Assembly (NCBI RefSeq): GCF_004010195.1
Contig: NC_057753.1
Location: 7,803,304 to 7,867,303, forward strand
Length of the DNA stretch: 64,000 nucleotides
Direction of reading: 5' to 3'
DNA from: Chiloscyllium plagiosum
Taxonomy: Eukaryota
Of the stretch, positions 29,201 through 47,459 are shown piece after piece. How positions within the stretch are numbered: the first letter of the stretch is position 1; every line of letters starts with the position of its first letter. The position numbers and the translations under genes were made by a program. The notes under the pieces are model-generated. The model made no database searches. It was not told the DNA's origin and saw only the letters and a program-made list of their open reading frames with translations.

Positions 29201-31103
29201 CTAAGTCGTTCGGCAGCAAAAAAATGTTTATTCGTGGCAGACGTTTGAGAGGAGCTCTTCCTGGAGGTAATGCATTTCTGTGCATATTATTCGCAATTGA
29301 AGAATAAACAAAGTAAACATGTATGCTTTGGCATGAGAATGGCATGCTCTAGAAATTGTGTTTTGGAATCGGGGAAACAGCTGGAGCTTCTAATTAAAAA
29401 CAAACTTAGGACAAATTCGATAGTTCAGCAGAATGTTGGAGAAGGCTGCAATTGAAACGCATTTGCTCATGAGTATAGGAGTTAGATTTGCAATTTATAA
29501 ATGTTACATGACCTCGTTGAAAGGGGTTTTCAAACGTTTATCAACCTGAAATGTTTCTTTGAAACCATGTACAGGTTATTTGAAGTTAGGAAAGTTTGAG
29601 CTCAATATAACATCGCATCCACCTATCAAGATTATGAATTGATAGTTAGTAAAGGCAAACTTTAAGCAGGTGATATGGAAAGACGTTCGCTCCGTGTGAA
29701 GCCTGAAAAGGTGTGATTTTTGAATAATTCGAAATTCATTTAATCATGTGTTTCAAACCATTACATTTGTGTTTTATATAAGTAACTTGGTTTTGTACGT
29801 TTTGCCTTCTTTTATGTTGAATGCCACACTTTTGTGCGCGGTTACGCTCAAAACCAACGAATATATGTGTGTGCATCAAACAGGCACATTTTTTTTAGAA
29901 TCAAAATAAAGAACCGTACTTAAATTACCACATGCTATCATGAATTCGAGATGATTAGGGCATCTCATCGATATTCAAATACTGAAACAGTTATTTGACC
30001 TTCACTGCATTATAACATAAAATAGTACTCCTCACGTAAAGAAATATAGCATCAAAATTCAACTTGGATATTACTCGATTAATGATGGAATTTAGATAAG
30101 AATCCAGCCAGCAATGTCTGTATCTGTGTGTGTTAGGGCTCGAATTTATGCATCGTTGTTCTCTGGAGCTCTGCTCGTAAGAAATCATGGAGTTTAATTC
30201 TTACACAATTTTCCACACTTCAACTTTGCGATATATTCCTAAATATTGGAAGCCTGCACCTTGCCTCACGATCAGAATTATCTTCCTTTGTCCTTGTTAA
30301 ATTTGGAATTTGATATCTGTTCGAAGACAGTTTTCCTGTGACTGACTCTTTAAATTCTACTGAAGGGAAATCAGTTGGCCTTGTGGCACAAGGCACCCAT
30401 TTATCAAGCAGGTATCAAAGCAGTTTTGTTCATGTATCTCCGACTGCTTCTTCTCTCAGACATGACTAACTGGTTTCAATTCCAGCAGAACACTTTGATC
30501 TTTTCCTTTAACAGTTTGCTCCAAGCAAAATTATTGTGGCTTTTTTCAATCCTTGAACTGTTGTGAAAGTTCTGACAAATAAAAACGAATTTATGAGGCT
30601 GGTTGGAGTCAAGCATTTTAAAGCGTTTGCCAAAGAAACTACTTATCTTACAATCTCCCTAATGTTGCAACACCTAAGAATTTTTATGGACTAATAATCT
30701 TAATAATATTATGCTCTCAAATTTTATAGTTTTAGCAGTTAGTTGTTGTTTTAAATCTTTTAGATTTTAATTTTAATAATGTTTAATTTTAAGTATTAGT
30801 TTTAAAATATTTTAGTAATAAAGTTTGTCGTCATGGTAGAGGATAGTAAAAGGGTGTTAATATTAAACTTCACACAACAACGCAGCAAATGATGCCAGGT
30901 AAGGGCTTTTAGCCTGTCTGTCTCATAAGTGTAACTCACTTCCCGCTTGGTATTTCTGCGAAAATGATAGAATTGAACCCGTCCCTTTAATATCATCTGG
31001 CTGATGTGTCGCTAAATAGGGGTTGCCTTACACGTCGACGAGCGACGTAATAAAACTCGAAAAAGGCGCAACCAATTCATGATGGCGAGTGCTCTTTATA
31101 TAT

Positions 31104-31597
31104 AAATACCGCGTCATCTAATTAGTGACGTGCATGAACGGATGAACGAGATTCCCACTGTCCCTACCTACTATCTCGAGAAACCACGGCCAAGGGAACG
31201 GGCTTGTCAGAATTATCAGGGAAAGAAGACCCTGTCGATCTTGACTCGAGTCTGGCAATGTGAAGAGACATGAGAGATATAGAAAAAATGGGAGGCTTCG
31301 GCCGCCGGTGAAATACCACTACTTTTATCGTTTTTTTTCACTTACCCGGTGAGGCAGGGAGGCGAGCCCTCACGGGGTTTCGCTTCTGGTCGGAAGCGTC
31401 CGGGCGGCCGGGCTCAACCTGCACGGGGACAGTGGGCAGGTGGGGAGCTTGACTGGGGCGGTACACCTGTTACACAGTAATGCAGGTGTCCGAAGGCGAG
31501 CTCATGAAGGACAGAAATCTCCCGTGGAGCAGAAGGGTAAAGGCTGTCTCGATCTTGATTTTCAGTATGAGTACAGACCGTGAAAGCAGCGCCTCAC
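31104..31597 (+). pseudogene. Dispersed 28S rRNA fragment (pseudogene) followed by an A-rich (TAAA)n tract
   Basis: Matches the conserved 28S core: cgtcatctaattagtgacg.gcatgaa.ggatgaacgagattcccactgtccctacctactat, gaaagaagaccctgt, ggtgaaataccactac, gactggggcggtacacctgt, cttgattttcagta. Many substitutions and no flanking rDNA. Confidence 0.95.
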
Positions 31598-32089
31598 ATA
31601 TAAATAAATATAAATAAACAAATAAATAATAAAGAGCTGGCCAATCCGACTTCAGACAACGAATTGCCGTGCCCAATCATCAATTGAAAGACAATTTTCT
31701 TTGTCTATCTCTACTTCTATCCTTGATAATAAATCTGATTCCTTGTAACCTGTCTTAATCTATAAGTGTCACAGGCCTTCCACAGTGTTTCCTAGGTGCA
31801 TGGCAGCAGTTTGGACTCGCTCACTTAACTTTTACAAGTCAGCTGCAACCTTCCCAACATTGTTATAACATCCGCCATCTGAATGAATATTTGTTCATGA
31901 AGAAGCTGACAAATTTATTGCCATTCCAGTTCGCAAATCTTTACTAGTATTGCACATGTGATGTCGTACACAGATTGAGCTGCCCATGCATAAGGAGGAG
32001 AAAGTGAGGACTGCAGATGCTGTAGATCAGAGCTGAAAATGTGTTTCTGGAAAAGCGCATCAGGTCAGGTAGCATCCAAGGAACAGGAG

Positions 32090-32125
32090 AATCGACGTTT
32101 CGGGCATAAGCCCTTCTTCAGGAAT
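32090..32125 (-). ncRNA. Minimal type I hammerhead ribozyme motif
   Basis: attc-CTGAAGA-A-gggc(ttat)gccc-GAAAC-GTC-gatt. Intact core, perfect stem II, palindromic ACGT in place of helix III, weak stem I. Confidence 0.75.
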
Positions 32126-32130
32126 GGGGG

Positions 32131-32162
32131 CTGAAGAAGGGCTTATTCCCGAAACGTCGATT
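32131..32162 (+). ncRNA. Minimal hammerhead ribozyme motif (mirror copy, stem I missing)
   Basis: CTGAAGA-A-gggc(ttat)tccc-GAAAC-GTC-gatt. One stem II mismatch; the upstream ggggg cannot form stem I. Confidence 0.6.
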
Positions 32163-34289
32163 CTCCTGCTCCTTGGATGCTACCTGACCTGATGCGCTTT
32201 TCCAGCAACACATTTTCAGCTCTGTCCTTGCATAAGTCAACCAATAGAACAACGTAGGTTTAGTCACTCAATCATTCCTTGCAACAATATCCCTGAAAGC
32301 AGCATCACAATTTCTATGTTTGCGATGTTGCTCCAAAGTTTCAGATGCACTGGAAGTTGAATACACCAGTTGACAATCTTGATGAGAAAACTGCTCTGGA
32401 AGTCCTCAACATTGACTGTAAATACCGAAAGCAATTCATTACAATCCCCAGTGGAAATCAGGGCTTCATTCTGTTGAATATCAAATGGAAGTGTTTCTCA
32501 TATCTGCTAGGCCAAAACTATAATCCAAATAGGAGACTTTCCAATAAATCACAAGAGTCATTTTGGTGGACCTGGATTCTCAGATCCTACTGAGAGTGAA
32601 AGAAAATAGTCACTGGAATGCAGCATCAGATGGAGTAACTACAGAATAATATTTCTGAAGATATTGAATATAAATAACAGAACAAGGGTTCAAAATGTAT
32701 TTAACTTCATGGCAAGTGCCATATCTGAGAAAAAGAAAATGCGAACAATGTTCTTGGTGATTCAGAGGAATAAACTTTGGTGTCGTGAATTTTCAATGTG
32801 GGACAGAAGTGCGAGGACATGGGAACGTGGGAAATACAAACAGGAGTCGGCCATTCAGCCCTTGAACTGTTCCACCATTCTCTAAGATGACATATGACCT
32901 GTCCTAGTCTGAACTCACTTTTAGTGCTAACTCTTCAACTTTTTGACGCTTCACAAATTCTAAAAATGATTTCAGTGATGTGGGTTCCACAGGTGGCTGG
33001 AATAGAGAAATTGAGGTATTGGTCACCTCTGAAAGAACAAAAATATTTTCCATCGCAGCCTGAAATTAATGACCCTCATCCAGTAACTATTCTGTAATCT
33101 TTTTTTAAATTGACATGAAAGTCCCTCAAGTAGAACAATGATGCCAATGTCTGCTCTTTCATGACACCTCGGAATATTTTGTGTTTCAATAACATCACCT
33201 CTTCCTCTTATGCACCGAAAACTGCCGAAATCATCAACGGAATCAAGCAGATATATCTATTTTCAAGGGTATTTGATATTCGTATTGAATTTTGAATAAT
33301 GAGGCAAAGAGTTAAGGATTAAACAGCAATGGATTTGAGAAACATTGTTGGATACTGGTCGACTTCAGTGCACCATTATGACGGACAAAATTGTACCAAG
33401 TGACGGTGGGAAAATGAAAATAAAAATCACATGACAGCAGGCACCTCGATAGGATGACGTGCATAGAATTCTGGCACTTCTATAGTGTTGTCGTGGAAGT
33501 TCAGGATAGATTATGGTTAGAGAATAGCGTTCGTTTGTTCTGTTCGAGAATGTGAGAAATTTCTTCCTGTTTAAGAATGGAATGCCTGATATTTATCCCA
33601 TGTTCAGCAAGTGCATAGATTTTACGTCTAAGGTACAAAACCGAACCATGTCCAGTCTACAAGTGCATGAGAAGAGAGATTTGTGTCGAGAGGGTGAAAA
33701 ATCATATTATAGAGATTACGTTGGACAGTGTAATCTGATTGGGAATAGGACAGTTTTACTGCAAAGTAATGCACTGCACGACTATCATTCCGGTCAATAA
33801 ATCAAAAGCATTGATTTAAATCAGCATGCCTCGGGATCTGTAACTCTCCATCATGTGAAATTTTACGACACAACGTTGTCATTCTTCACAGTTGATATGC
33901 CGTTAAGCAACACTCGCCAGAAAAACAGAACATAATATTTGGAGAGCAAGATCTTAAGAAAATTTACAAAATTACAGAATTCTTAGTACGTTGTGTCTGC
34001 ATTGATTCCCTAAACCAGGATCTCACCTAACGCCAATCCACTGTCTCTCTGCGTCACACTGCACATTGCTTCCATACCATAAATATTAACATTTCCAAAT
34101 AAAAGCATCGATTGAACTGAATCAGAAGCGTGACGGGCAAACAGTTCGTAATCAACTATTCCCTCACTCAAGTTCTATAACTTAATTTTCCAGGTCACAA
34201 CAGGCAATATTTTACAGAATGAAGCATTATTGAATTGAGAACATTCAGGAACTGGGTGGGATTTTAATTTGGTCCATGGAGCACTATAT

Positions 34290-37869: not shown

Positions 37870-39281
37870 GTAAAATATTTGTCGAATTTCAGTACCTACA
37901 TCATTCATTCTATAAAATACCGTAATTTATATATAGTCTTTCCACGTTTTTTAGTTACTATTGCACATAGTATGAACATGCTACAATGAGTATGTGCTTA
38001 TCTGTACACAGTTGCAATGCCTTTACCTTTCGTTGCGTGTTGCGAAACACTTCAGGTGCATGTTATGTTTTCTCCAATTTATTGACCGATTTTCAAGAGT
38101 TCAATGCTTTCCTTCACTGCAATTAATGTTTTTTTTTTCCATTATTGGCATGGAAGTCCCATCCCCATTCAATTGTAATCTGTGTTGTCTATAAGGTTCT
38201 ACTGCCTGCTTGTCTCAAAAATCATTTCACACTTTTAAATGTGTAAGCTTCCAAACTTACTTCATTTGCATCACAATGTGAATCAACTCTCTGTGTTCTT
38301 GGCAGAGCGATCGTTTGTGAATCGCCAAGAGTTATCATGGTTGGAAGGAGTTCAGTTGTGTTATTGACAATGCTCATGCGACTGAATATCCACAATATCA
38401 TCTCCGTGTAATTGAAATTCTCTTTTCTTGCTGTCGATTCTTTCGCTGGTTTAATTATGACATTGTAACAGTTGGGACACATTGTGTTAATGTTAATTTA
38501 GAATGGGGCGGAATACTCTCGATGGTGGCAATTTTCAGTGTACTTAAATGTTGAATAATTTCTGACTAATTTCGATGAATGCGTTATTAATTAAAGTATT
38601 TTCAGCTGCATGATTTTCGGTAGTACTGTTACGTGTTTCTCGTAAATGGATGATTTGTAGTTGGCTGCAACAGAGAACAGTTTTTTTCTGCACTTAATCT
38701 CTAACATTGGCTGTTTCCCACCATTGACAGCAATATAGCATGTGGTAATGTTGGTTCAAAATTGATGCAACAAAACTGAAGAAACATCGTCTTCCTGTTC
38801 ATGTCTTTTTGTGTCAGAACACGTTTGTACAAGTGGTCATTCGATATTTTCAAAATTGGAATATTTTCATACTTTTTCTTGAAAGGAAGCCACACTGTAT
38901 TCTGGTTAAGGGAAAATCTGTGTTTATGTAAGATTCTAGACATATTGCTGTTTCTTCTATTATTTGTTGAGTTCAGTATTTTTACGTTTCTTTGCTGGTT
39001 TAGCATTTCCTGGAAAGTTAGATGTTGTGTGATTGGTTGACGTATGTTTCCATTTCTTGTTGAATTTTGTCAGAGCTCATGACATTTCATTCATTTATGA
39101 TTCACTGATGTCGCATACTTTAAACAAGATGACTGGGTCAAACGTATCAAATAATTAATCCGGCATGAGAGGCCACTCTCCACGTTCGGACTCAACTCTT
39201 TGAATTGCACAGAGTCCAATACAATGTATGATTTTGTTCGAGTCCAATCAGTCTCGATTGTATTGCCTTTTTCTCTTGCAG

Positions 39282-40207
39282 CTAACTTGGCAGTAATTGT
39301 GATCTTGTCCCGAAGAAGATGTGGTCTCTCTGGATGCATCATTTATTACCTGTTGGCCATGGCAGTAGCAGATCTTCTCGTCATAGTCACGGCTGTGATC
39401 CTAAATCGAATTACTGGGATATTTTCACCTTATGGTTTCCTGTCTATCACACCTATCTGCAGTGCACGCACTGCAATAAATTTTGCAGTTGTCGACAGTT
39501 CTGCCTGGTTAACAGTCAGTTTCACGTTTGATCGATTTGTGGCCATTTCTTGCCAGAAGCTAAAAATAAAGTACTGTACAGAGAATGTGGCAATGGGAGT
39601 TATAGTTATGGTGTCCACGCTGTGCTCCCTAAAGAGTATCTTCATTTATTTTGCATTTGAACCAACTTACATAGAGAACAAGATACCATGGCTCTGCACG
39701 TTAAAAGATGCATATTATATGTCACCTGCATGGACAGCATATGACTGCTTTCGCGGCATTTTAAACCCTCTGCTCCCATTCATTCTCATTTTACTGCTCA
39801 ATGTTCTGACTGTCAGACACATTGTAGCAGCTAATAGAGCTCGTTGCAGACTCCGTATCCAGACGAAAAAAGAGAATCAGAGTGATCTAGAAATGGAGAA
39901 GCGGAAGAAGTCTATTGTTTTACTCTTCGCAATCTCAGGCAGTTTTATTCTGTTGAATTTAGTATTTTTTGTCACGATACTCCATGTCCGAATTTCGAAT
40001 GCTACTTACTACTCAGGTTCTGGGATCGATTCCACATTGACGCTCCAAGAAGGTGGATATATGCTTCAAATATTGAGTTCCTGCATCAATCCGTTTATTT
40101 ATGCTGGGACCCAGAGTAAATTCAGAACTGAGTTAAAGAGGGGGATAAAATATCCGCTGAGCCTACTGCTTAATATAAACAATCTTGAAACTAGAAAATC
40201 GGAGTAG
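39282..40207 (+). CDS. GPR139/GPR142-like class A (rhodopsin-family) GPCR, coding exon 2; spliced product 331 aa
   Basis: Acceptor ccttttt-ctcttgcag|CTAAC. Seven hydrophobic segments with LAMAVADL (TM2), TFDRFVAI (DRY variant), ECL2 Cys (WLC), LNPLLPF (TM5) and SSCINPFIY (NPxxY). Frame is intact to TAG. Confidence 0.93.
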
Positions 40208-40644
40208 AATTATTTAAAAGCTTATTTTCCTCCAGGGCATACAAATATTTATGGACACTGGGACAACCTCTGATCAACTGCACGTAATATTCGTGATTCC
40301 ACCAACACTGATAGTCTGAATTGACTCCTATGACGCCTTCCATCACGTGACACAACTGTTTGAAACGGCTGCTCATGCTCACTCACACCCCAGTGCAACA
40401 TTTGCTGTATATTCTTTCAATGACTGCAAAGTCATGACCATAATCTGAAAATCATGATGTTTGGTTTGCCCCACACTGCTCAAATTGAGAGATGACATTA
40501 CTGCCTTTGCAGATTTAAAACTTACATCATCACTAATATACTGCTGATGTAATTAAGAGTATTCTCGAACATTTTACTTGTGGTGTTTGACGTTCAACCT
40601 CTGACATCACTTTCCCTTTTTCAGAAAGGGTAATCTGTTATTGA

Positions 40645-41860
40645 ATTTGTGAAGGGTAGGTCTTGCCTTACAAGTCTTATTGAATTCTTTGAGGAGGTGA
40701 CCTTTGAGGAGGGTAGAGCAGTGGATATAGTATACATGGATTTTAGTAAGGCATTTGATAAGGTTCCCCATGGTAGGCTTATGCGGAAAGTCAGGTGGCA
40801 TGGGATAGAGGGAAATTTGGCCAATTGGATAGAAAACTGGCTAACCGGTCGAAGTCAGAGAGTGGTGGTAGATCGTAGATATTCAGCCTGGAGCACAGTT
40901 ACAAGTGGAGTTCCGCAGGGATCAGTTCTAGGTCCTCTGCTGTTTGTAATTTTTATTAATGACTTGGATGAGGGAGTCGAAGGGTGGGACAGTAAATTTG
41001 CAGATGATACGAAGATAGGTGGAGTTGTGGACAGTGAGGAGGGCAGTTGTCGGCTGCAGAGGGACTTAGATATGATGCAGAGCTGGGCTGAGGAGTGGCA
41101 GATGGAGTTCAACCCTGCCAAGTGTGAGATTGTCCATTTTGGAAGAACAAATAAGAATGCGGAATACAGGGTTAATGGTAGGGTTCTTAGTCAGGTGGAG
41201 GAACAGAGGGATCTTGGGGTCTATGTACATAGATCTTTGAAGGTTGCCACTCAGGTGGATAGAGTTTGTAAGAAGGCCTATGGAGTATTATCGTTCATGA
41301 GCAGAGGGATTGAATTCAAGAGTCGTGAAGTGATGTTGCAGCTGTACAGGACTTTGGTTAGGCCACAGTTGGAGTACTGTGTGCAGTTCTGGTCGCCTCA
41401 CTTTAGGAAAGATGTGGAAGCTTTGGAGAGGGTGCAGAGAAGATTTACCAGGATGTTGCCTGGAATGGAGAACAGGTCGTACGAGGATAGGTTGAGAGTA
41501 CTAGGCCTTTTCTCATTGGAACGGCGAAGGATAGAGGTTTATAAGATGATCAGAGGAATAGATAGAGTAAACAGTCAGAAACTTTTTCCCCGGGTACAAC
41601 AGAGTGTTACAAGGGGACATAAATTTAAGGTGAAGGGTGGAAGGTATAGGGGAGATGTCAGGGGTGGGTTCTTTACCCAGAGAGTGGTGGGGGCCTGGAA
41701 TGCGCTGCCTGTGGGAGTGGTAGAGTCAGATTCATTGGTGACCTTTAAGCGGCAATTGGATAGGTACACGGATGGGTGCTTAAGCTAGGACAAATGTTCG
41801 GCACAACATCGTGGAACGAAAGGCCTGTTCTGTGCTGTCTTGTTCTATGTTCTATGTTAT
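40645..41860 (+). mobile_element. Young 5'-truncated CR1 with a 379-aa open RT fragment
   Basis: GRSCLTSL, YMDFSKAFDKVPH, GVPQGSVLGPLLF, FADDTK; tail tgttctatgttctatg. Confidence 0.97.
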
Positions 41861-45099: not shown

Positions 45100-45230
45100 C
45101 CAAGATTTGTGGTGCTCGAAAAACACAGCCGGTCATGCAACATCTGAGGAGCAGGAGAGTTGGACGTATCAAACAGAAGCCCTTCATAGGGAATCTCCTA
45201 CTCCTTGGATGCTGCCCAACTGGCTTGTGA
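45100..45230. repeat. Decayed and deleted copy of the 32-kb palindromic hammerhead element
   Basis: catctgaggagcaggagag...aagcccttcatagggaat followed by ctcctactccttggatgctgcc. Confidence 0.65.
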
Positions 45231-45699: not shown

Positions 45700-47357
45700 T
45701 ATAGAACATAGCACTATACAGCACAGAACAGGCCCTTGGGTCCACGATGTTGTGCCGAACATTTGTCCGAGCTTCAGCATCTATCCATGTACCTATCCAA
45801 TTGCCGCTTAAAGGTCACCTATGATTCTGACTCCGCCACTCCCAAAGGCAGCGCATTCCATGCCCCCACCACTCTCTGGGTAAAGAACCTACGCCTGACA
45901 TCCCCATACCTTCCACCCTTCACCTTAAATTTATGTCCCCTTGTAACACTCTGTTGTACACGGGGAAAAAGTCTCTGACTGTCTACTCTATACTGATCAT
46001 CTTATACACCTCTATCAATCACCCCTTATCCTCTCCGTTCCAATGATAAAAGGCCTAGCACTCTCAACCTATCCGCGTATGACCTATTCTCCATTCCAGT
46101 CAACATCCTGGGTAAATTTCCTCTGCACCCTCTCCAAAGCTTCCACATCTTTCCTAAAATGAGGAGACCAGAACTGCACACAGTACTCCAAATGTGGCCT
46201 TACCAAGGTCCTGTGCAGCTGCAACATCACTTCACGACTCTTGAATTCAATCCCTCTGCTAATGAACGCCAATACGCCACAGGCCTTCTTACAAGCTCTA
46301 TCCACCTGAATGCCAACTTTCAAAGATCTGTGAACATAGACCCCAAGATCCTTCTGCTCTTCCACCTTACTAAGAACCATACCATTAACCCTGTATTCCG
46401 CATTCTTATTTGTCCTTCCAAAATGGACAACGTCACACTTGACAGGGTTGAACTCCATCTGCTACTCCTCAACCCAGCTCTGCATCATATCCAAGTCCCT
46501 TTGCAGCCGACAACAGATATCCTCACTATCCACAATTCCACCAATCTTCTTATCGTCTGCAAATTTAGTGACCCAACCCTCGACTCCCTCTTCCAAGTCA
46601 TTAATAAAAATTACAAACAGCAGAGGACCCAGAACTGATCCCTGCGGAACTCTACTTGTAACCGGGCGCCAGGCTGAATATTTACCATCTACTACCACTC
46701 TCTGACTTTGACCAGTTAGCCAGTTCTCTTTCCAACTGGCCAAACTTCCCACTATCTCATGCCTCCTGACTTTCTGCATAAGCCTACCATGGGGAAGCTT
46801 AACAACTGCCTTACTAAAATCCATGTATACTACATCCATTGCTTTACCCTCATCCACATGCTTGGTCACCTCCTCAAAGAATTCAATAAGTCTTGTAAGG
46901 CAAGGCCTACACCTCACAAATCCGTGCTGGCTGTCCCTAATCAAGCAGTGTCTTTCCAGATACTCATAAATCCGATTCCTCAGTACCCTTTCCATTACTT
47001 TGCCTATCACTGCAATAAGACTAACTGGCCTGTAATTCAAGGGGTTATCCCTATTCCCTTTTTTGAACAGGGACACAACATTCGCCAGTCTCCAGTCCCC
47101 TGGCACCACCCCCATTGACAGTGAAGACGAAGAAATTATTGCCAACGGTTCTGCAATTTCGTCTCTTACTTCCCACATAATCCTAGAATATATCCCGTCA
47201 GGCCCGGGGGACTTGTCTATCCTCAGGTTTTTCAAAATGCCCAACACATCTTCCTTCCTAACAAGTATCTCCTCTAGCTTACCAGTCCCATTCATACTCT
47301 CCTCTTCAACAATACGGTCCCTCTCATTTGGCAATACTGAAGAAAAGTACTCATTCA
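45700..47357 (-). mobile_element. Young CR1 RT fragment, same subfamily as 40645-41860 but inverted
   Basis: 298-aa and 124-aa RT ORFs (KSPGPDGI, NYRPVSL, PQGSVLGP, FADD). The 3' region is near identical to 41560-41850. Confidence 0.97.
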
Positions 47358-47459
47358 AAAATAAATCGCAACAAGGTCCAAAACAATTCCTATTACAAAT
47401 GCATTTGCATTACTGCTAAATTTGGGCAACATCGAAGATTTGTACAAGATTTTAAAAAT

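What the first reader, a model, noticed from the sequence alone, without database searches (positions are those of the whole stretch)
31980..32236. Miniature palindromic retroelement with a hammerhead ribozyme on each strand
Seen: 94-bp inverted arms with 3 mismatches and a 9-nt loop. Each arm carries CTGAAGA-A-stem II-GAAAC-GTC, so transcription from either strand yields one ribozyme core. A 15-bp imperfect direct repeat flanks the unit (31980-31994, 32222-32236). Established: Penelope-like element pLTRs encode minimal type I hammerheads whose helix III is a short palindrome (here ACGT) and which cleave as dimers; pLTRs are often inverted. Inference: this is a ~230-bp non-coding mobile unit made of two inverted pLTR ends and inserted by target-primed reverse transcription. 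It differs from described metazoan retrozymes, which are direct tandem repeats. The full hairpin would sequester the ribozyme, so cleavage and dsRNA formation would compete. I cannot tell whether this family is already annotated.
Basis: partly seen in the sequence, partly recalled or inferred. Interest (0 to 1): 0.8.

Follow-up and report, generated by a model that had tools for sequence, protein, structure and literature searches.

The report
Stump-sized Penelope retrotransposon insertion
This 230-base mirror-image sequence is the shortest and commonest kind of insertion left by a very abundant Penelope-type jumping gene, built anew each time the element lands rather than being a mobile element of its own, so it is mostly ordinary, though the copies together hint at how these elements copy themselves.

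Summary
The palindrome is real (94-bp arms, 3 mismatches, 15-bp TSD), but asymmetric: the minus-strand arm carries a 33-bp extra 'tail'. It is the 3' end (pLTR) of a Neptune-type Penelope-like element whose RT+GIY-YIG partner I found. This inverted-copy-plus-tail layout is published for PLEs. Of 89 consecutive genomic insertions, 56 are two-armed and 47 are mini-palindromes with 42 different centres; only 10 of 47 keep the ribozyme core on both arms. In the window, the plus-strand core lacks helix I. So it is not a family of its own. Best model: both strands of a ~14-nt staggered cut prime reverse transcription on one RNA, at two sites 35 nt apart. Both cDNAs run off near the hammerhead's 5' edge, not its cleavage site (62 versus 3 of 135 ends), and are joined head-to-head. 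Evidence: arms agree at subfamily sites (101/107); the commonest junction has the tail on either arm (12:7). Related direct mini-tandems look like template jumps from the same stop point and resemble nascent retrozymes. The scan found this before on two other pieces of this genome. Ribozyme activity is untested.

The parts
31980..31994 (.). Target-site duplication, copy at the element's 3' end
   Evidence: 13 of 15 identical to 32222-32236; TSDs of 12-18 bp in 46 of 56 two-armed copies, 0 in shuffled-partner controls
31995..32027 (-). PLE 'tail' (element positions 99-131): unpaired 33-bp extension; its end is the outer RT start site. In tandem copies it runs on into the 5' region of the ORF
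   Evidence: tail-to-ORF junction in L262, L265, L269, L274, 809 exact matches; ATG 36 nt after the tail in L265
32028..32121 (-). Sense arm, paired part (element positions 5-98)
   Evidence: 95-98% identical to the 30 best genomic copies
32090..32125 (-). Minimal type I hammerhead motif: helix I 5' strand 32125-32122, CUGAAGA 32121-32115, extra A 32114, stem II 32113-32102, GAAAC-GUC 32101-32094, predicted cut 32094/32093. Helix I is 3 pairs plus a U.U mismatch
   Evidence: sequence; features match the min-HHR description in PMC4209133; activity not tested
32122..32130 (-). Centre of the palindrome: element positions 1-4 plus five C (filler or variant upstream sequence); head-to-head junction of the two cDNA ends
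   Evidence: the exact 25-mer occurs twice in the genome, the other copy L031 has a different structure
32131..32224 (+). Inverted 5'-truncated pLTR copy (element positions 5-98); outer end is the inner RT start site (~95 after removing 3 nt of microhomology)
   Evidence: outer end at 90-104 in 49 of 56 two-armed copies
32131..32158 (+). Incomplete hammerhead core: no helix I 5' strand, stem II shortened by 32147 G>T
32222..32236 (.). Target-site duplication at the element's 5' side, overlapping the inverted arm by 3 nt (microhomology)
   Evidence: overlaps of 1-12 nt in 36 of 46 copies with a clear TSD

Best explanation
A single, dead insertion of an abundant Neptune-type Penelope-like retrotransposon, in the known 'inverted copy + pLTR + tail' layout at its smallest size. 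Shown: family, partner, layout, size continuum, TSD, two fixed outer ends, clustered inner ends. Inferred mechanism: the RT/GIY-YIG protein makes a ~14-nt staggered cut; one target strand primes reverse transcription at element position ~129-131, the other at ~92-95, on the same RNA spanning the pLTR-ORF junction (the RT from 131 following and displacing the cDNA from 95). Both cDNAs end near position +1, the 5' edge of the hammerhead, most likely because the template RNA begins there (transcription start, or edge of a protein-protected fragment). The two cDNA ends are joined head-to-head by microhomology or filler. The palindrome is therefore rebuilt at each insertion; the second ribozyme core is a by-product. 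Confidence is about 0.95 for identity and 0.6 for twin priming on one RNA.
For: 18,123 exact matches to a 43-mer of the 3' end. Long copies join the same arm to an open frame with RT (PF00078, E 6e-8 to 1e-8, above cut-off) and C-terminal GIY-YIG (E ~3e-4, just below cut-off) in 3 of 3 proteins. L063: same outer ends and ~13-bp TSD but 2.35 kb with RT inside. 56 of 89 insertions two-armed, 47 mini, 42 junction types. Stop rate 0.043 per nt at -10..+5 against 0.002-0.003 on either side; 62 of 135 inner ends at -6..+5, 3 at 31-35. Arms agree at subfamily sites in 101 of 107 against 59% on permutation (max 80% in 2000), while 131 private versus 6 shared later mutations argue against general homogenisation. 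Inverted arm reaches >=20 nt further upstream than the tail arm in 15 of 56, and the commonest junction (797 exact copies) has the tail on either arm, 12:7, 1 unclear of 20; simple fold-back predicts neither. Three of the four main haplotypes give both mini and long copies. 24 of 28 distinct tail-to-ORF loci jump from ORF position ~150-430 to a new unit, 19 of 24 starting at -20..+10. The anole element PAc extends both target strands in vitro from two RT start sites that bound the tail, on uncleaved RNA (PMC11167929).
Against: No RNA 5' end at +1 was seen: the one raw-read RNA sample, from a relative and not a 5'-end library, shows no place where many molecules begin or end. The 15:6 bias in asymmetry is weak. 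Microhomology deletion at the tip of a fold-back hairpin could also give both polarities. The commonest junction is enriched for one haplotype (47C in both arms of 12 of 20; haplotype TTC gave 0 long copies in 10), which leaves room for a master copy. The sample is the first 13.4 Mb of one contig, selected for an exact 43-mer, with 10 of 89 cut by assembly gaps. The window's arms share a 31-mer found nowhere else, which one-RNA priming, fold-back and later conversion all explain.
Confidence: 0.8

Rival explanations
1. Same element, but the inverted arm is made by fold-back (self-priming): the tail-primed cDNA runs off, snaps back and copies itself to ~95; hairpin-tip processing makes the varied centres. 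Arkhipova et al. 2013 proposed self-priming for PLE palindromes.
For: Arms come from one source (101 of 107); window arms share a genome-unique 31-mer; near-perfect palindromic centres in L003, L016, L025; PMC3846280 discussion.
Against: 15 of 56 inverted arms hold >=20 nt that the tail arm lacks, by more than 100 nt in L033, L094, L116; 12 of 20 commonest junctions have the longer inner end on the tail-less arm; PAc primes from both strands in vitro.
Confidence: 0.2
2. One reading: a non-autonomous ~230-bp palindromic family that transposes as a unit from hairpin RNA, with a ribozyme on each strand.
For: One junction has 797 exact copies and is haplotype-biased; one unusual junction recurs in two nearby insertions, L046 and L050; palindromic junction reads exist in RNA of a relative (17 reads).
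Against: 42 junction types in 47 copies; 10 of 47 with two cores; tail on either arm for the same junction; the L050 junction 28-mer is single-copy; the window's junction does not define a family; no 5' flank carried along, TSDs abut the arm.
Confidence: 0.08
3. MITE or other DNA-transposon derivative.
For: Long inverted repeats, small size, high copy number.
Against: Variable 12-18-bp TSD, asymmetric tail, variable centre, colinear with an RT+GIY-YIG element.
Confidence: 0.01

Closest known systems
EN+ Penelope-like element insertions with inverted 5'-truncated copy and 30-40-bp tail (Craig et al. 2021, PMC8557442; Arkhipova et al. 2013, PMC3846280; passages read)
   Same: Inverted truncated pLTR at the 5' end, tail on one end only, TSD, palindromic head-to-head junction, RT with C-terminal GIY-YIG.
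   Different: Here the whole insertion is only the two arms (227 bp between TSDs), and this stump is the majority class (47 of 89), with inner ends piled up at the hammerhead's 5' edge. I did not find that pile-up described in the passages read.
Poseidon of Anolis carolinensis, PAc (Frangieh et al. 2024, PMC11167929; parts 1-2 of 4 read, supplementary figures not seen)
   Same: Two internal RT start sites bounding the tail, near the ORF start; both target strands extended; hammerhead upstream; cleavage not needed for insertion.
   Different: Different clade by linker motif (Neptune-type); ORF starts ~36 nt after the tail rather than inside the hammerhead; TSDs are 39% GC, no strong AT-rich target seen.
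PLE minimal hammerheads (Cervera and de la Pena 2014, PMC4209133; parts 1-2 of 4 read)
   Same: Type I core, extra nucleotide before stem II, palindromic loopless helix III, short helix I; pairs 100-700 bp apart on opposite strands reported in Schistosoma.
   Different: Stem II is 4 bp; helix I has a U.U mismatch in this subfamily; the two cores here are ~10 bp apart.
Metazoan non-LTR retrozymes (Cervera and de la Pena 2020, PMC7229834, passages; Li et al. 2026 preprint 10.64898/2026.07.22.740005, part 1 of 5 and passages)
   Same: Non-coding, hammerhead-bearing, PLE-derived.
   Different: Those are direct tandems giving circular RNA; this copy is inverted and single. The same family does give direct 224-bp tandems elsewhere.
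LINE-1 twin priming (recalled, not read)
   Same: Both target strands prime on one RNA, giving a 5' inversion with microhomology.
   Different: In L1 the second site is random and the arms barely overlap; here it is fixed and both arms copy the same ~94 nt.

Membership tests
EN+ Penelope-like element | Single ORF with RT and C-terminal GIY-YIG linked to the pLTR | tested here: met
   Met for the family, not this stump: L124, L130, L131; L131 arm 95% identical, L124/L130 89-90% (sister subfamily). GIY-YIG score just under Pfam cut-off.
EN+ Penelope-like element | pLTR formed by (partial) tandem; tail continuous with ORF 5' region | tested here: met
   L262, L265, L269, L274; 809 exact junction matches
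EN+ Penelope-like element | Inverted 5'-truncated copy and 30-40-bp tail on one end | tested here: met
   Window: 33-bp tail; 49 of 56 outer ends at 90-104 against 3' end ~130
Neptune clade | [quoted passage not shown] | tested here: met
   C-x4-C-x2-C in P0002; criterion from PMC8557442
Neptune clade | RT phylogeny with named members | not tested
   No reference PLE proteins were in hand; Nematis shares the linker motif
PLE minimal hammerhead | Core CUGANGA/GAAA/NUH, extra base before stem II, palindromic helix III | tested here: met
   Both arms
PLE minimal hammerhead | Helix I | tested here: inconclusive
   Minus arm 3 pairs + U.U; plus arm none; perfect 4 bp in the sister subfamily (13 of 145 motifs)
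PLE minimal hammerhead | Covariation in stem II | tested here: inconclusive
   114 of 165 motifs fully paired, 113 with the same stem, 1 different; loop II varies by subfamily. Stem too invariant to show covariation.
PLE minimal hammerhead | Self-cleavage as a dimer | not testable with these tools
   No genomic or RNA signature at the cut site (3 of 135 ends)
Non-LTR retrozyme | Two or more direct tandem units each with a hammerhead | tested here: not met
   Inverted, single unit
Non-autonomous family in its own right | Copies share one full structure (centre, ends, polarity) | tested here: not met
MITE | Fixed short TSD and symmetric transposase-type termini | tested here: not met
   TSD 12-18 bp, asymmetric ends

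The most novel reading that the evidence does not exclude
The dominant template of this element is a short RNA covering the pLTR-ORF junction, from the hammerhead's 5' edge (+1) to about 190-260. One RNA is primed twice, at two sites that follow similar motifs (CAYUUUC-W-S-C, ending at 94 and 129), so that half of all insertions are double run-off palindromes; when the RT instead jumps from the RNA's 5' end to such an RNA's 3' end it lays down direct 200-300-bp hammerhead tandems, i.e. retrozymes at birth. This would settle how PLE inverted ends form and how retrozymes arise from PLEs.
Probability: 0.4. Interest if true: 0.6.

Novelty: new member of a known kind. Interest (0 to 1): 0.3.

Why it matters
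The single copy does not matter much: it is one of roughly ten thousand or more (47/89 of 18,123 exact-match ends is about 9,600; an extrapolation from one contig). The population matters modestly. How PLEs make inverted ends is stated as unresolved in PMC8557442, and this family gives a large natural record that favours priming from both strands over self-priming, shows that the hammerhead cut site does not set insertion ends, and offers a route to retrozyme-like tandems. Thousands of ~90-bp hairpins in host transcripts would also be a large dsRNA source, and such copies are easily mis-annotated as MITEs or microRNA precursors (Rfam's best small hits were sub-threshold miRNA models).

Tried and rejected
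Rfam: no hammerhead model hit in two searches; not taken as evidence against, since these minimal motifs were defined with relaxed descriptors. MFE folding of single arms does not give the hammerhead fold (z -0.9 to +0.9), as expected for a dimer-type motif. Run search: no RNA holder listed on record. Reads laid from 4 runs: X21 gave none; X20 (one sample of a relative) covers both strands with a ~5-fold depth step at +1 that mirrors copy number; no discrete starts or ends; A-to-I editing cannot be told from differences among copies. Hammerhead cleavage as the cause of 5' ends: rejected (3 of 135). A shared junction in L046 and L050 as a family mark: single exact copy. The two RT ORFs in the window (40634-41788, 46462-47409) were considered as partners and dropped: the one translated reads as a LINE-type RT by motif (my reading). 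PDB search with the partner protein: no hit. A genome-wide count of two-armed copies by one gapped pattern was not obtained; the fraction comes from the 89-insertion sample. Sequence look-up of earlier findings was blank. Paper searches found no paper naming this family or the stop cluster; Repbase and Dfam could not be checked, so it may well be annotated there. Rows dropped: L047 (other end of L046); duplicates L281 and L285; 10 of the 100 listed places were not fetched.

Full report
Numbering. The element reads on the window's minus strand. Position +1 is 32125 (first base of the hammerhead's helix I strand) and 131 is 31995.

1. Observation. The arms, loop, three mismatches and 15-bp repeat are as described; the hairpin is far beyond chance (z -26.8). 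The unit is not symmetric: the minus-strand arm covers about -5 to 131, the plus-strand arm 5 to 98, so 33 bp (31995-32027) have no partner. The plus-strand hammerhead lacks its helix I 5' strand and one stem II pair. Rfam returned no hammerhead family.

2. Family and partner. The genome (3.56 Gb) holds 18,123 exact matches to a 43-mer of the 3' end. Copies that extend upstream run into GIY-YIG and RT coding sequence. [quoted passage not shown] The linker has a three-cysteine motif, the mark of Neptune and Nematis elements in PMC8557442; no tree was built. Walking upstream reached copies in which the tail runs straight into the ORF's 5' region, with an ATG 36 nt after the tail in L265. L063 has the window's layout, with the same outer ends and a ~13-bp TSD, but is 2.35 kb long and holds RT sequence. 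Earlier scan notes call the host a shark; I did not test that.

3. Population. I took the first 90 of 100 listed matches (89 insertions). 56 are two-armed, 23 were scored single-armed (some carry fillers), 10 are cut by gaps. 47 are mini-palindromes like the window's, with 42 different junctions; 10 of 47 keep CUGA on both arms. Outer ends of the inverted arm lie at 90-104 in 49 of 56, mostly 92-95 after removing overlap with the TSD. TSDs of 12-18 bp were found in 46 of 56; a rerun scored 40 of 52 against 0 in ten shuffled-partner controls. Inner ends pile up at the hammerhead's 5' edge: 62 of 135 at -6..+5, 42 at 6-30, 3 at the cleavage site 31-35; the stop rate is 0.043 per nt at -10..+5 against 0.002-0.003 upstream and at 36-86.

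4. Is the palindrome a mobile unit? The window's centre occurs at one other place, in another structure; a 31-mer with its two shared variants occurs only in its own two arms. The commonest junction has 797 exact copies, but of 20 examined the tail is on one arm in 12, the other in 7, unclear in 1, with varied outer ends. Three of four main haplotypes give mini and long copies alike; the fourth gave no long copy in 10 and dominates the common junction, the main point left for a master copy. The balance favours assembly at each insertion.

5. Mechanism. The two arms share their source: 101 of 107 agree at three subfamily sites against 59% when partners are shuffled, which is what later mutation alone (2.4% per arm) would leave; later mutations are private (131) rather than shared (6). 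Fold-back of the tail-primed cDNA cannot put into the inverted arm sequence that the tail arm lacks, yet this is so by >=20 nt in 15 of 56 and by more than 100 nt in three; the reverse holds in 6. Deletion at a hairpin tip could mimic the small cases. PAc extends both target strands from two RT start sites that bound the tail and uses uncleaved RNA (PMC11167929). I therefore infer twin priming on one RNA with displacement, run-off near +1, and end joining. The two start sites follow similar motifs at 85-94 and 120-129, and a third look-alike lies at -10..-1. That +1 is a physical RNA end is inferred from direct mini-tandems: of 28 distinct loci with a tail-to-ORF junction (809 genome-wide), 24 break off in the ORF start (20 at 188-260) and restart a new unit, 19 at -20..+10, as expected if RT jumps from a 5' end to a 3' end (recalled from R2). 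TCATTCC at +1 fits the recalled initiator consensus YYANWYY, so a start site is plausible; a protein-protected fragment is the alternative. RNA reads from one sample of a relative cover both strands and show no discrete ends, so this step is unproven.

6. Ribozyme. The motif matches the published PLE minimal hammerhead (PMC4209133). Stem II is nearly invariant (113 of 114 paired motifs identical, of 165) while loop II changes by subfamily; covariation is therefore inconclusive. Helix I is perfect in the sister subfamily and has a U.U mismatch in this one. In a transcript of the whole unit both cores are locked in the hairpin. Cleavage from this copy is unlikely; untested.

7. What is known. 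Inverted truncated copy plus 30-40-bp tail: PMC8557442, PMC3846280, PMC8969392, PMC2377424 (passages). Opposite-strand hammerhead pairs 100-700 bp apart: PMC4209133. PMC3846280 proposes self-priming; my counts lean the other way. Six searches found no paper on this family or on the stop cluster; supplementary figures of PMC11167929, which map genomic ends, were not visible and may show it. Two earlier scan notes on this genome reach the same classification; they are not independent support.

8. Verdict. Observation confirmed; interpretation partly supported. New member of a known kind, interest 0.3. The part worth following is the population signature, not this copy.

Noticed in passing
L284:1401-1965; also L280/L281, L276-L304: Direct 224-bp tandem (2.5 copies, 99% match) of hammerhead arm plus ORF start, retrozyme-like; 24 of 28 tail-to-ORF loci are such short direct tandems with varied joints.
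   Followed up: partly
window 45108-45216: Second, older two-armed remnant of a related element (72% to the arm; inverted piece of positions 33-58), core decayed.
   Followed up: partly
window about 31095-31735, +: Decayed 28S rRNA fragment ~300 bp from the insertion (Rfam LSU_rRNA_eukarya, 250 bits).
   Followed up: no
window 39155-40207, +: 350-aa open frame with a rhodopsin-family 7TM domain (PF00001, E 6e-19), probably a single-exon GPCR gene.
   Followed up: no
window 40634-41788 (+) and 46462-47409 (-): Two RT-coding fragments (PF00078); the second reads as LINE-type.
   Followed up: partly
L046/L047 and L004/L005: Two-armed insertions with a tail on both arms (1 of 56 in the unbiased set); L046 and L050, 114 kb apart, share an unusual filler at the centre.
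   Followed up: partly
L182-L202 (G000:C15 about 4,034,400-4,036,250), L124, L127: Internal pieces of the element's ORF expanded into 72-bp, 120-bp and shorter tandem arrays.
   Followed up: no
element positions about -35 to -21 (e.g. L030:1465-1480): Pyrimidine tract ending in TAG, like a splice acceptor, ~21 nt upstream of the hammerhead; Drosophila Penelope has an intron ending at helix I.
   Followed up: no
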